Shown here: one piece after another, positions 25,656-30,703 of the stretch
Layout of the letters: every line of letters starts with the position of its first letter
Numbering within the stretch: the first letter of the stretch is position 1
NCBI GenBank assembly: GCA_946530505.1
Contig: CAMNAD010000001.1
Coordinates: 1 to 38,991, forward strand
Reading direction: 5' to 3'
DNA length: 38,991 nucleotides
Origin: an uncultured Bacteroidales bacterium
GTDB taxonomy: Bacteria; Bacteroidota; Bacteroidia; Bacteroidales; UBA932
Position numbers and translations under genes: made by a program
Notes under the pieces: generated by a model
Seen by the model: the letters and a program-made list of their open reading frames with translations, nothing else
Database searches by the model: none
Told to the model about the DNA's origin: nothing

Positions 25656-26501
25656 ATGAAAAGCATACAAGAGGAAATAACGCCCGTCGAAAGCGACGAC
25701 CTGTATGTAGTCCTGGACCACATAAACGCCAAGTTCGACTACCCTATCCATTGCCACGAAGAATACGAGATAAATCTTATTCTCCATTCCGACGGCACAC
25801 ACATTATCGGGACACGCCAGGAGGCGTTTTATGGCATGGATCTGATAGTTATCACCCCTTTCGTGCCCCATGTATGGAAGGCGCGGGAAGAGGGGAACCG
25901 CGTCATAACCATCCAATTCTCCGGGAAAATGCTGGAATTCCCCATGATAAGGCTGAAACAGTTCCGCAAAATAGAATCATTCCTCAAAAATATCGTTCCG
26001 GCAGCAAAGTATCATCTTTCCGAATCGGACCCTCTGGTGCAGGAAACCCTTGCGCTTGCAAATGCAAAAGGCTTCGACGCTACCCTGGCCTTCCTGCATC
26101 TGCTTAACTCCATGGCGGAAAGGGAATTCTCGGTGCTGGGAGATTCCGACTCAGGCATCAGGGCGTCCCGTTCTCGCAGGATAGCCAAGGTCATGGACTG
26201 GTCCAGGAAGCACCTTGGCGAAACCATCCGGCTCTCGGAAGTCGCATCGCTCGTAGACATGTCCGAATCGGCTTTCTCGCATTTCTTCAAGAAACACACA
26301 AACCTTTCCTATATCAGCTACCTCAACGGACTGCGGATCTCCAGGGCCTGCCGCGAACTTGAATCCAGTGCCATGAGCGTCAGTGAAATCTGCTGGAACT
26401 GCGGCTTCAACAACAAGTCCAACTTCAACAGAAAATTCCTGCAGGCAAAGGGCATGACCCCTACTGCCTACAGGAAATACATCTCCGAGATTCTGATCTA
26501 G
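25656..26501 (+). CDS. AraC family transcriptional regulator (cupin + double HTH)
   Basis: [13 protein letters not shown] cupin motif; [12 protein letters not shown] and [24 protein letters not shown] motifs. Divergent from the PUL operon. Confidence 0.95.
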
Positions 26502-28729
26502 CCTACCTGGGCTCCGTTGACCACGACTTCCTGCGGAGTTATGAAGCGCATCTTCCCGTCGTTCTGCTTGGCCATGAGAATCATGCCCTTGCTCTCGATC
26601 CCCTTGATGGTGCGGGGCTTGAGATTGGCGAGGATGCAGACCTGCTTTCCGAGCATATCTTCGGGGCTGTAGTATTCGGCGATGCCGGAGACGATAACGC
26701 GCTTGTCGATGCCGGTGTCTATGGTAAGCTTGAGCAGTTTGTCGGTCTTGGGCACACGCTCCGCCTCAAGGACAGTCGCGGTGCGGATGTCCATCTTCTC
26801 GAAGTCCTCGAAACTGCATTCTTCCTTCTGCGGAGTCACCTGCTTCGCAAGCTCGGCCTTTGCCTCCGCCTCTTTCTGCGCCCGAATTGCAGCCAAACGG
26901 TCCAATTGCTTCTGGATGGCTTCGTCTTCGATCTTCGCGAACAGCAGTTCGGCCTCACCCAACTGATGCCCTTCCGGCAGAATATCGGCTGTACCCAGTT
27001 GTTCCCAGCCAACGACTGGCGCATCAGCTTCCGGACCGTCAATGGCGGCCACGGAAGTTTTTTGAGCGGGCTCGAGCGTGGCGGTAGCGGAGTGGCCGCC
27101 ATTGCCGGGCGCGTCAGCCTTCGGAAAAGCAATGCCGGGACCGGGCTCCCCTTGCGGGACACGGCCCGGCCCTTTGCTTTTCGCGGAGGGCTTAATGTTC
27201 AGCATTTTACGCAGGCGCTCGCAGGCAAATGGTGTAAACGGCTCGAAAGCGATGGCAAGATCCGCGCAGAGCTGCAGGCATACGTTCAGTATGGTGCCAG
27301 TACGCGCCAGATCCGTCTTCGCAAGCTTCCACGGCTCGCTGTCGGAAATGTACTTGTTGCCAAGGCGCGCAATCTGCATCGCATCCTTGAGCGCCTCGCG
27401 GAAACGGTAGTTTTCGATATTCTTCTCTATACTCTCGCGCAGCGCCGGAACCTCGGCAAGAGTCTCCCGGTCCACATCGGTCAACTCTCCCGCAGCAGGC
27501 ACACGCCCCTCGAAATATTTGTGAGTCAGCACCACAGCACGGTTTACGAAATTACCGAAAATGGCTACCAGCTCGGAATTGTTGCGGGTCTGGAACTCTT
27601 TCCAGGAGAAGTCGTTATCCTTGGTCTCAGGAGCATTGGCGGTGAGCACATAACGCAGCACATCCTCCTTGCCAGGGAAATCCTGCACATACTCGTGCGC
27701 CCAGACGGCCCAGCCGCGGGAGGTGGAAATCTTGTCGCCCTCGAGATTCAGGAACTCGTTGGCAGGCACGTTATCCGGAAGGATGAATCCGTCGCCATAG
27801 GCCTTGAGCATAGAAGGGAACACTATGCAGTGGAACACGATATTGTCCTTGCCTATGAAATGCACCAGCTTGGTGTCGGGGCTCTTCCACCACTTCTCCC
27901 AGTCATTCGGCAGGAGCTCGATGGTATTGGAGATATAGCCGATGGGGGCATCGAACCATACGTAGAGCACCTTCCCCTCGGCACCTTCCACGGGCACGGG
28001 GACGCCCCAGTCGAGGTCGCGGGTGACGGCACGGGGCTGCAGGCCGCCGTCCAGCCAGCTCTTCACCTGGCCGTAAACATTGGAACGCCATTCCTTGTGG
28101 CCTTCCAGTATCCATTCACGAAGCCAGGGCTCGTAGTCCTGCAGTGGAAGATACCAGTGGGTAGTCTTTTTCTTTATCGGTTCCGCACCGCTGAGTTTGG
28201 AATGAGGGTTGATGAGTTCTTCGGGACTTAGGGTAGACCCGCACTTCTCGCACTGGTCGCCGTAGGCATTCTCGTTGCCGCACTTGGGGCAGGTCCCCAC
28301 GATGTATCGGTCGGCAAGGAAGGTCTTTGCCTCCGGGTCGTAGTACTGCTCACTTTCCCGGGTGACGAACTTGCCCTCGTCGTAGAGTTTGCGGAAGAAC
28401 TGCGAAGCATTCTTCTCGTGAATCTTCGACGAAGTGCGGCCATAGATGTCGAAATTGATGCCCAGGGCCTTGAAACTGTCGCTGATTATACTGTGATACT
28501 TGTCCACAATATCCTGGGGGGAGCAGCCCTGCTGGCGCGCCTTGATGGTGATGGGCACGCCGTGCTCGTCGCTGCCGCACACATACAGCACATCCTCTCC
28601 GCGAAGACGGAGATATCTCACATAAATATCTGCCGGCACATATACTCCGGCAAGATGCCCGATATGCACCGGGCCATTGGCATAAGGCAACGCACAGGTC
28701 ACCAGGGTTCTCTTGAACTTCTTTTCCAT
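26498..28729 (-). CDS. metG: Methionine--tRNA ligase with C-terminal tRNA-binding domain and a large internal insertion
   Basis: [12 protein letters not shown], Zn knuckles, YVWFDA, KISTS and a C-terminal OB domain. A 62-aa stretch lies between LRKMLNI and WEQLG. Confidence 0.98.
27040..27104. repeat. 65-bp palindromic element in frame in metG (element A)
   Basis: Perfect 13-bp inverted repeat CAATGGCGGCCAC (27040-52) / GTGGCCGCCATTG (27092-104) around a 39-nt loop GGAAGTTTTTT...GCGGA. Confidence 0.9.
27116..27192. repeat. 77-bp nested palindromic element in frame in metG (element B)
   Basis: Nested pairs AGCC/GGCT, GAAAAGCAA(27124-32)/TTGCTTTTC(27174-82), CCGGGC/GCCCGG and TCCC/GGGA. GGA and GCGGA lie just inside the outer arms. 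Confidence 0.85.
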
Positions 28730-28735
28730 ATATAG

Positions 28736-30703
28736 TTAATCTTCTTTTTTCAGACTGTCTTTCAATTTCTTCTGGCGCTTCCGCAATTTGATCATTTCCT
28801 GCATCAGGGCCATTTCTTCTTCTCCGGAAGTACCGGAAAGCGCCTTGCGTATTTCCTCGAGGCGCGATGCCACCCGGCGCTCGGCAAGCGTGAGCATTGC
28901 GCGGGGGACGTATGCCACCAGCCAGGACTGTTCCGAGGTCAGGGAACTCTCCAGACGCTTCACGGATAACTGATAGGGGCGGGTGGAAAACTCTCCCGCA
29001 ATCTCGGCAAGCGTGCGGTCGGGAGAGTCAAGGAGGGTGCGGACAATCTCGTCCTGATCTTTGCCTTCGTCGTAAAGATCCAGATATGCATCATATACGC
29101 GGCGGTATCCGTTGTTTGCCAGGGGCTGTCCGGTAGATTCTATGGCAGACGCAATGAAGCCGGCTACAGTGTCGACCGCCTCAGGGTCGTAATACGGAGA
29201 GTCCGTCTCGAAGTGCAGTTCTTCGCATCCGTGCTGCAGCAGGAAGGTCAGAATATCGCCCTCCACCGCCGCAAGGATACGGTTCTCCGGAGTGTATCTG
29301 GCCGATGCCGATGGAGCAGAGTCCCCCTCTGGAGCATTTTCCCGTATAGGGTTGCGAAGCAACGCGGAAGAGGGGGACTCGCGCTCACGGCGCTCATCTT
29401 CCAGAAGGCGGTCGCGGGTGGTTTTCACACGGGTGAAAAGGATGTCCGGCGCCACGTCGAATTTCTCGGCGGCAGTGTTCACATAAACAGAGCGCTTTAC
29501 CGCATCAGGTATCCGGGCGATGGTGTCCGCTATGTCGTTTACGAAATTCGCCTTCTTGAGAGGATTCCCGGCGGCTTCCCCGAGGAGGATGTCCGACTTG
29601 AAATCGAGGAAATCCTTTGCATTCTCCCGAATATAGTCCTGCACTTCCTCCAGGCTCCTGCCCTTGCTGAACGAATCAGGGTCCTCCCCTTCCGGAAGAA
29701 GCACCACGCGCACGTTCAGGCCTTCATACAAGATGAGGTCGATATCCTTCAGCGAAGCGTGGATGCCGGCGGAATCGCCGTCGTTCATCAGCAGCACATT
29801 CTCGGTGAACTTGTGTATCAGGCGGATCTGCTGCACCGTAAGCGCCGTTCCGCAGGGGGCCACCACATTGTGTATGCCCAGCTGCTGGAGCATCACATAG
29901 TCGATATTACCCTCGACGATAATACACTCATCCTGACGGGATATTTCGCTCTTGGCGAAATAGATGCCGAAGAGGATGTTGCTCTTGCGGTAGATTTCGG
30001 TATCGGGAGAGTTGACGTACTTTGCAGGATTGTCGGCCTTGAGAGTACGGCCGCTGAAGGCGATGGTACGTCCGCTCACCGACTGGATCGGGAACATCAC
30101 GCGTTCGCGGAACTTGTCGCCAAGGGTGCCGTCTTCCCGCTTTACCACCAGGCCTGCATCCAGCAGGTACTCTTCTTTGTATCCGGCTGCCTTAGCCGCC
30201 TGCAGGAGGGTATCCTTGCCGGACGGGGCCCATCCGAGTCCGAATTTCTCTATGGTTTCGTCTTCCAGACGGCGGGAATGGTAGTAGGCAAGGCCGACGT
30301 CCTTTCCTTCGCCGGACTTGAGCTGGTCAGCAAAGAACTTTTGGGCGAATTCACTCACGAGCATCAGGCTTTCGCTGCGCTGGCGGCTGGCGAGTTCTTC
30401 CGGAGATTCTTCCTCCTCGACAACCTCTATATTGTAGCGTTTCGCAATGTAGCGCAGGGCCTCCACGTAGGAATTATGCTCGTGCTCCATCAGGAAGCCA
30501 ACGGCCGAGCCAGACTTCCCGCATCCGAAACATTTGTAGATACCTTTCGACGGCGACACGTAGAAAGACGGGGTCTTCTCCTGATGGAAAGGACAGCAGG
30601 CCACATAGTTGGCCCCGCGGCGCTTCAGCGTCACGAAGTCCCCTATTATATCCTCTATCCGTACGGTATCCAGGATGAGGTCGACCGTTTCTTTAGGTAT
30701 CAT
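28736..30703 (-). CDS. dnaG: DNA primase
   Basis: CPFHQEKTPSF..CFGC Zn ribbon, RVMFPI, KYVNSP, VEGNID, DGDSAG TOPRIM, EDPD. Confidence 0.98.
   Translation of the reverse strand: MIPKETVDLILDTVRIEDIIGDFVTLKRRGANYVACCPFHQEKTPSFYVSPSKGIYKCFGCGKSGSAVGFLMEHEHNSYVEALRYIAKRYNIEVVEEEESPEELASRQRSESLMLVSEFAQKFFADQLKSGEGKDVGLAYYHSRRLEDETIEKFGLGWAPSGKDTLLQAAKAAGYKEEYLLDAGLVVKREDGTLGDKFRERVMFPIQSVSGRTIAFSGRTLKADNPAKYVNSPDTEIYRKSNILFGIYFAKSEISRQDECIIVEGNIDYVMLQQLGIHNVVAPCGTALTVQQIRLIHKFTENVLLMNDGDSAGIHASLKDIDLILYEGLNVRVVLLPEGEDPDSFSKGRSLEEVQDYIRENAKDFLDFKSDILLGEAAGNPLKKANFVNDIADTIARIPDAVKRSVYVNTAAEKFDVAPDILFTRVKTTRDRLLEDERRERESPSSALLRNPIRENAPEGDSAPSASARYTPENRILAAVEGDILTFLLQHGCEELHFETDSPYYDPEAVDTVAGFIASAIESTGQPLANNGYRRVYDAYLDLYDEGKDQDEIVRTLLDSPDRTLAEIAGEFSTRPYQLSVKRLESSLTSEQSWLVAYVPRAMLTLAERRVASRLEEIRKALSGTSGEEEMALMQEMIKLRKRQKKLKDSLKKED
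29319..29380. repeat. 62-bp palindromic element in frame in dnaG
   Basis: Perfect 12-bp inverted repeat GAGTCCCCCTCT (29319-30) / AGAGGGGGACTC (29369-80) around a 38-nt loop GGAGCATTTT...GCGGA. The loop contains the mini-hairpins CCC/GGG and GTTGC/GCAAC. Confidence 0.9.

What the first reader, a model, noticed from the sequence alone, without database searches (positions are those of the whole stretch)
27008..27193. MetRS carries a ~60-aa insertion built from two adjacent palindromes and a direct repeat
Seen: 62 codons lie between LRKMLNI and WEQLG, almost entirely covered by hairpins A and B. An 18-bp direct repeat (GGCGCATCAGCTTCCGGA 27018-35 / GGCGCGTCAGCCTTCGGA 27108-25; 15/18 identical, exactly 90 bp apart; peptides PEADAP/PKADAP) brackets element A. 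Known: Bacteroidales MetRS normally has only a few residues at this position. Inference: two successive insertions at one permissive loop, the direct repeat being a decayed target duplication or a shared element end. The 90-bp unit preserves the frame.
Basis: partly seen in the sequence, partly recalled or inferred. Interest (0 to 1): 0.75.

Follow-up and report, generated by a model that had tools for sequence, protein, structure and literature searches.

The report
Two hairpin repeats stacked inside MetRS
The extra ~60 amino acids in this ruminant-gut bacterium's methionyl-tRNA synthetase gene are two different small hairpin-shaped DNA repeats lying side by side in frame; the second is present in some strains and missing in others, was likely imported from a related species, and is predicted to be read as a floppy loop, much like the palindromic elements of Rickettsia.

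Summary
metG (26498-28729, minus strand) carries a 62-codon stretch made of two repeat families. B (27120-27190) has 21 copies in this genome; 16 lie in Pfam-supported reading frames, and its stem covaries. A (27036-27108) has a constant core and variable paired arms.

Relatives show short, B-only, A-only, truncated and doubled alleles. B-only alleles are exactly 30 aa shorter. Public metagenome contigs with identical flanks carry the B-only allele, so the 90-bp unit is polymorphic.

The direct repeat is a shared element end, not a decayed target duplication: 95 nt replace 5 nt, and the second copy is diverged although the flanks are identical. This A copy is closest to A copies in other species' metG, so import by recombination is likely. 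AlphaFold gives the insert low confidence between well-folded flanks. IleRS also hosts A or B at one site.

Most of the genus has a different, non-palindromic long loop here. These genomes hold many RAYT-like transposases, but none is flanked by A or B. This is a Rickettsia-palindromic-element-like system. The scan has noted this class before in other rumen Bacteroidales genomes.

The parts
26498..28729 (-). metG, methionine--tRNA ligase with C-terminal tRNA-binding domain, 743 aa, uninterrupted frame
27008..27193 (-). 62-codon loop just after the last helix of the anticodon-binding domain; about 58 aa longer than the short alleles; Ala/Pro/Gly-rich; predicted disordered
27120..27190 (-). Element B: 71-nt bulged hairpin of a dispersed family (21 copies in this genome); this copy is stop-free in all six frames; gives the peptide [23 protein letters not shown]
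27108..27125 (-). Direct repeat copy 1: the 3' end and tail of element B; also present in B-only alleles and, 17/18 identical, at a B copy in another locus (L077)
27036..27108 (-). Element A: conserved core of about 40 nt between 17-nt inverted arms that vary between copies but stay paired; closest to A copies in other species' metG
27018..27035 (-). Direct repeat copy 2: a B-type end carried by the A unit; its first 7 nt match the end of an A-only metG allele (L116), not copy 1
27011..27105 (-). 95-nt tract (A, copy 2 and two Val codons) that stands in place of 5 nt in B-only strains; net +90 bp

Best explanation
The insert is two unrelated-core palindromic DNA repeats, B and A, lying head to tail in frame in MetRS; B came first, A was likely added recently by recombination with an A-bearing metG allele of a related species, and the peptide is predicted to be a tolerated disordered loop. 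Shown: B and A are dispersed families; the allele series; the 95-for-5 nt polymorphism; the direct repeat matching the family end. Inferred: both families spread as non-autonomous elements recognised as single-stranded hairpins, because stems covary while bulges and cores are constant. They persist in essential genes when the net length is a multiple of three and the site is a surface loop. Inferred (about 55%): the left crossover used short homology at B's tail and the right crossover used the conserved Gly-Trp codons, so the donor's diverged end and Val-Val codons came along. Untested (about 30%): the original mobiliser is one of the host's many RAYT-like Y1/HUH transposases. The core claim (two repeat families, B first, shared end, neutral loop) stands at about 0.9; the import route lowers the whole.
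For: B: 21 copies in G000, 16 in Pfam-supported host frames; 13, 6 and 17 pattern matches in G093, G181 and G214, reversed control 0; 96.8% of cells paired, 11 of 25 pairs compensatory, 0 of 500 shuffles reach this, slid controls 28-54%. A: 32 distinct copies with a constant core and mostly paired variable arms. Alleles: and L222. Order: G000 groups with B-only L050/L112/L113 downstream of the loop (99/95) and weakly with L112/L113 upstream (85/79). Same-species polymorphism: joint 27010->27106 with 5 letters between in X4, X6 and X9; X9's contig has 0 differences over 180 nt; all loop-skipping metG joints are net 90 bp. Direct repeat: copies 1 and 2 score above all but 5e-6 and 2e-4 of genome 18-mers on a profile from 53 non-metG B ends. 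Donor: the nearest of 34 other arm sets are the metG copies L116 (33/39) and L115 (30/39); the G093 metG remnant matches 21/24. Structure: pLDDT below 50 at residues 188-237, about 90-98 in the flanking domain, pTM 0.76; 9 residues in PDB 1rqg against 70 here.
Against: No donor allele with the same end and Val-Val codons was found among 141 parsed metG loci. A copy in another locus (L097) is nearly as close (29/39), so the arms are not strictly locus-specific. The tail part of copy 2 scores only weakly on the B profile (2.9% of background), so a 12-nt duplication cannot be fully excluded. No RAYT-like gene is flanked by A or B; 5 of 60 such loci have one within about 1.5 kb, close to my rough chance estimate of 2-3. 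Covariation counts include orthologous copies and do not correct for kinship. Low pLDDT is expected for a stretch with few aligned homologues. The genome is 68% complete.
Confidence: 0.6

Rival explanations
1. A was placed next to B's end directly by a HUH (RAYT-like) transposase acting on single-stranded hairpins, building a translated BIME-like mosaic; the donor was another A copy in the same genome.
For: Head-to-tail arrays recur (G000 C3, G181 metG B+B', G016, G189, L102, L115). G000 holds 6 RAYT-like genes; nine other element-bearing genomes hold 2-12 matches each and G189 one. B has constant bulges, and a bulge is required for E. coli TnpA-REP activity (PMC8266576, passages).
Against: No A or B flanks any of 60 RAYT-like loci; best flank scores are at shuffle level except for full B copies in neighbouring sequence. 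The only other A copy in G000 has unlike arms. The proteins score 28-34 bits on NCBIfam REP_Tyr_transpos against a cut-off of 80.
Confidence: 0.25
2. A inserted as a classical MITE with a 12-18 bp target-site duplication that has since decayed.
For: 78 nt of A plus a 12-nt near-duplicate (10/12) add up to 90; the 12-nt stretch is single in B-only alleles.
Against: B-only strains are identical in the flanks, yet copy 2 differs from copy 1 at 3 of 18 positions and the next codons differ too, so there was no time to decay. The first 7 nt of copy 2 match an A-only allele. I saw no such flanking duplication at other A copies by eye.
Confidence: 0.1
3. The loop is selected as protein (a binding or regulatory appendage) and the palindromy is incidental.
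For: Most genus members keep a conserved long loop at this exact site (95 of 116 distinct loops; 92 of 95 keep an HT motif), so the site can carry a conserved peptide.
Against: This insert is not that loop: no A or B profile hit in those loops. Its clade shows short, truncated, A, B and doubled alleles. The same DNA is read in three frames and two orientations at the IleRS site.
Confidence: 0.05

Closest known systems
Rickettsia palindromic elements (RPE; as described in the review PMC10969869, passages read; original papers not read)
   Same: Small palindromic dispersed repeats of several families, inserted in frame in unrelated housekeeping genes, giving a recurring peptide compatible with the fold.
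   Different: Different lineage; no sequence comparison with RPE was made. These are 70-90 nt rather than about 150 nt. A higher share is in frame (at least 16 of 21 B copies against nearly half). Two families stack at one site, alternate at the same sites in MetRS and IleRS, and flip in place.
REP/BIME/REPIN with TnpA-REP (RAYT), including intragenic REPs and TIRtrons (PMC3733652, PMC6006769, PMC8266576; passages read)
   Same: Imperfect hairpins with conserved bulges, mosaic head-to-tail arrays and in-frame intragenic copies (double insertions are reported). The host encodes many Y1/HUH proteins, most flanked by their own hairpins.
   Different: Longer than 20-40 bp REPs and mostly coding rather than extragenic. 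No terminal GTAG tag is conserved in B. No cognate transposase gene flanked by A or B was found.
Classical MITEs (terminal inverted repeats plus target-site duplication)
   Same: Small, non-coding in origin, inverted ends, dispersed.
   Different: No target-site duplication shown; the outer arms differ from copy to copy instead of being constant terminal repeats.

Membership tests
RPE-like coding palindromic elements | Dispersed multi-copy palindromic repeat | tested here: met
   21 B copies in G000; A in G000 twice and in 4 of 200 other genus genomes
RPE-like coding palindromic elements | In-frame insertion in unrelated intact genes | tested here: met
   16 of 21 B copies in frames with Pfam or NCBIfam support; 3 more recognised by recalled motifs only; 2 probably outside coding sequence
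RPE-like coding palindromic elements | Absent from orthologues of relatives | tested here: met
   Short, single-element and double alleles of metG and ileS
RPE-like coding palindromic elements | Insert in a surface loop, host protein still active | tested here: inconclusive
   Predicted disordered loop; activity not testable here
RPE proper (Rickettsia families) | Sequence homology to RPE-1 to RPE-10 | not tested
   No RPE sequence was fetched or compared; Rfam gave nothing near a gathering score
REP/RAYT (REPtron) | Conserved GTAG or CGTC tag at the foot of the hairpin | tested here: inconclusive
   No terminal GTAG in the B alignment; the B stem contains a CGTC-like run and the A core an internal GTAG, neither placed as a clear foot
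REP/RAYT (REPtron) | Cognate Y1 transposase gene flanked by the repeat | tested here: not met
   0 of 60 distinct RAYT-like loci flanked by A or B; genomes are incomplete and not every match was fetched
REP/RAYT (REPtron) | Cleavage of the single-stranded hairpin by the transposase | not testable with these tools
   needs an in vitro assay
Classical MITE | Target-site duplication | tested here: not met
   95-for-5 nt replacement with a diverged second copy between strains with identical flanks

The most novel reading that the evidence does not exclude
A and B are non-autonomous partners of an expanded, unclassified family of ~300-aa Y1/HUH transposases of rumen Bacteroidales. They home to the same loops of essential enzymes and to each other's ends, and travel between species as metG and ileS alleles, building translated BIME-like mosaics. 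That would name the first candidate enzyme for RPE-type protein insertions and give a live polymorphism to test it on.
Probability: 0.25. Interest if true: 0.75.

Novelty: new variant of a known kind. Interest (0 to 1): 0.45.

Why it matters
It shows an essential aminoacyl-tRNA synthetase gaining 30 residues of repeat-derived sequence within one species, with almost every intermediate allele still to be found. Whether RPE-type inserts are neutral, and how they move, is an old open question. Here a present/absent pair on identical flanks, two families sharing one end, and a short list of candidate HUH enzymes make both questions testable. The phenomenon itself is known from Rickettsia and from intragenic REPs, and this scan has already noted it in other rumen Bacteroidales, so surprise is moderate.

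Tried and rejected
Rfam: no match near a gathering score. Viral contigs: 0 exact matches for the B pattern or the A pattern. A single-sequence AlphaFold run gave pLDDT 39 and was discarded.

RAYT partner: no flanking by A or B; 5 of 60 loci have an element nearby, which I do not count as enrichment. By-eye likeness of A arms to the hairpin beside one RAYT-like gene scored at 1.9% of background, and A-arm against B-arm consensus at 3.3% with a poorly anchored A consensus; both are inconclusive. The likeness of ends is therefore claimed only for the metG A copies.

Simple deletion between the repeats as the source of B-only alleles was rejected: it would keep Val-Val, but these alleles read Glu-Ile. 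An ancient palindromic origin of the older genus loop is not supported (median z 0.07; 5 of 95 below -2). Assembly artefact was rejected (zero-difference contigs in runs of studies P4, P5 and P8).

I first took the shared A/B site for purL; Pfam shows it is ileS. The G189 short allele may be ancestral or a remnant; unresolved. The RNA-library contigs (X11, X14) are not proof of transcription.

Paper searches listed no description of these families. The library lacks most subscription papers and I opened no supplements; those of PMC3733652 and PMC6006769 list intragenic REPs and transposase flanks and could bear on novelty. The genus name used as a search term was my recalled guess and comes from no call.

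Full report
Observation. The window's ORF 26498-28729(-) is an intact 743-aa MetRS. Bases 27008-27193 encode 62 residues between LRKMLNI and WEQLG. The 18-nt direct repeat is 15/18 identical at 90 bp spacing; 8 of 300 codon shuffles do as well, so alone it is weak. Hairpin A has 17-nt arms; A and B fold at z -2.0 to -2.4 and -2.8 to -3.1. Rfam has nothing relevant. Runs that hold the stretch are rumen, ruminant-gut or unspecified gut metagenomes, and named contigs with the A core are Bacteroidales/Bacteroidia assemblies, mostly from rumen by their titles.

Element B is a dispersed family. BLAST and iterated nhmmer give 21 copies in this 68%-complete genome. Sixteen lie in reading frames with family support: ileS, purL, a glycosyltransferase (2), metK, a radical SAM protein, metG, thrA, a GH88 hydrolase (2), mutL, rsmE, apbE, dapF, a SAM methyltransferase and msrA (gene names are my reading of the Pfam domains). 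Three more lie in frames I recognise only by recalled motifs, and two are probably outside coding sequence. B was found in 3 of 200 other genus genomes, with 13, 6 and 17 pattern matches and none for the reversed control. On 30 chosen copies, 96.8% of cells pair and 11 of 25 pairs change on both sides; no shuffle of 500 reaches this and slid structures give 28-54% (kinship not corrected). Stops are rare in all six frames (1-8 copies per frame in a set of 58).

Element A is a second family: a nearly constant core between arms that differ from copy to copy but mostly stay paired (32 distinct copies). It occurs in 4 of 200 other genus genomes, in 21 GTDB stretches and once more in this genome, in a pmbA/tldD frame.

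Alleles. Of 144 metG loci, 140 parsed, giving 116 distinct loops (loci were best hits to the query, so long loops are over-represented). Eleven are short, 95 carry an older conserved GxDH[RK]..HT loop that has no A or B hit and no palindromy, and 10 are element alleles. These are: B-only (G214, L112/113, G292/G262; also G287), A-only (L116), A plus partial A (L115), an A remnant (G093), B plus a second B-like copy (G181), truncated B (L114, L117) and this A+B allele. B-only segments are 74 aa against 104 here: exactly 30 codons. On trees of the flanks G000 groups with B-only alleles (99/95 downstream, 85/79 upstream), so A arrived on a B background.

Within the species. Logan contigs of 8 runs were laid on the stretch. 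A+B pieces with no differences occur in X4, X5, X7 and the RNA library X14 (X7 shares a study with a possible source run). B-only joints occur in X4, X6 and X9 (27010->27106, 5 letters between), and variants in X6, X9, X11 and X12 are also net 90 bp. X9's B-only contig is identical over 180 nt of flank; X6 has zero-difference contigs on both sides; X4 holds both alleles. X11's B-only contig matches this B over 51 nt where sister-species alleles differ at 5-10 positions. So 95 nt replace 5 nt, recently.

The direct repeat. Both copies fit a profile made from 53 B ends outside metG (background 5e-6 and 2e-4), and a B copy in another locus ends 17/18 like copy 1. A fresh target duplication would be identical on identical flanks; instead copy 2 differs at 3 of 18 and the following codons read Val-Val rather than Glu-Ile. 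The L115 A copy has B-type ends on both sides (my reading: 12/14 and 16/19 against the B consensus). The repeat is thus best read as a shared element end. The nearest relatives of this A copy's arms among 34 others are the metG copies L116 and L115, and the G093 remnant matches 21/24. I infer import of a short tract from an A-bearing metG allele of a related species. No exact donor was found, and L097 in another locus is nearly as close.

Same behaviour elsewhere. One site in ileS, between the catalytic and anticodon-binding domains, holds B in G000, G181 and G287, flipped B in two other frames in G093 and G214, A in G262 and other assemblies, and no element in G189. The purL copy is flipped between G000 and G214. 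The peptide is therefore not what is conserved.

Structure. With a 52-row alignment AlphaFold2 models the anticodon-binding domain at pLDDT about 90-98 and residues 188-237 (the insert) below 50, pTM 0.76. PDB 1rqg has 9 residues where this protein has 70. A tolerated surface loop is predicted; activity is untested.

Mobiliser. Pfam Y1_Tnp hits over the cut-off occur in 5 of 5 element-bearing genomes tested. G000 has 6 RAYT-like genes and the ten other genomes searched have 1-12 matches each. They keep HUH and Tyr residues but score below the NCBIfam REP_Tyr_transpos cut-off, and most are flanked by their own hairpins. None of 60 distinct loci is flanked by A or B, and 5 have one nearby. Arm-likeness tests were inconclusive. 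They remain candidates only.

Comparison with what is known. It works like the Rickettsia palindromic elements (PMC10969869, passages) and like intragenic REPs, for which double insertions and in-frame copies in flexible loops are reported (PMC3733652 and PMC6006769, passages). It fails the REPtron test (no flanked transposase) and the MITE test (no target duplication). Seven paper searches listed no description of these families. Earlier notes of this scan report the same class in at least 11 genomes; they are unchecked AI notes and not evidence. One of them pointed me to PMC3733652.

Verdict. A real feature and a new variant of a known kind. What this locus adds is the allele series, a within-species present/absent pair, the shared-end reading of the repeat, A/B alternation in two class I synthetases, and a list of candidate enzymes. 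Interest 0.45.

Noticed in passing
metG loci L002-L020, L118-L221 (same loop position): Most genus members carry a conserved, non-palindromic long loop with a GxDH[RK]..HT motif (95 distinct loops; 92 keep HT). The conserved Asp/His residues, and frequent Cys, could bind a metal; unexplained.
   Followed up: partly
G000 C95, C58, C7, C91, C4, C183; L223-L297: Expanded family of ~290-330 aa RAYT-like Y1/HUH proteins, up to 12 per genome, most flanked by their own 35-55 nt hairpins (TIRtron-like), scoring below the NCBIfam family cut-off.
   Followed up: partly
window 29311-29390, inside the ORF 28736-30703 (primase-like by recalled motifs): Another hairpin with about 12-bp perfect arms lies in frame in a linker-like stretch; not A or B by profile search; possibly a third repeat family.
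   Followed up: no
L304:1115-1195 (ileS) with L056, L057, L070, L098, L298, L299, L300: One IleRS site holds B in three frames and two orientations, A, or nothing, depending on species. In A alleles the outermost arm bases look like an inverted copy of the host flank.
   Followed up: partly
L305 (purL) and L061: The B copy is inverted in place between perfect outer arms in two related species, with the frame open in G000.
   Followed up: partly
L011 metG loop: A short stretch encoding VIPSEAS resembles, by recall only, a repeat type often found near GIY-YIG nucleases, suggesting further repeat families use this loop.
   Followed up: no
window 25656-26501 and 26498-28729: An AraC-like regulator ORF (recalled motif) converges on metG with the stop codons overlapping by 4 bp.
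   Followed up: no
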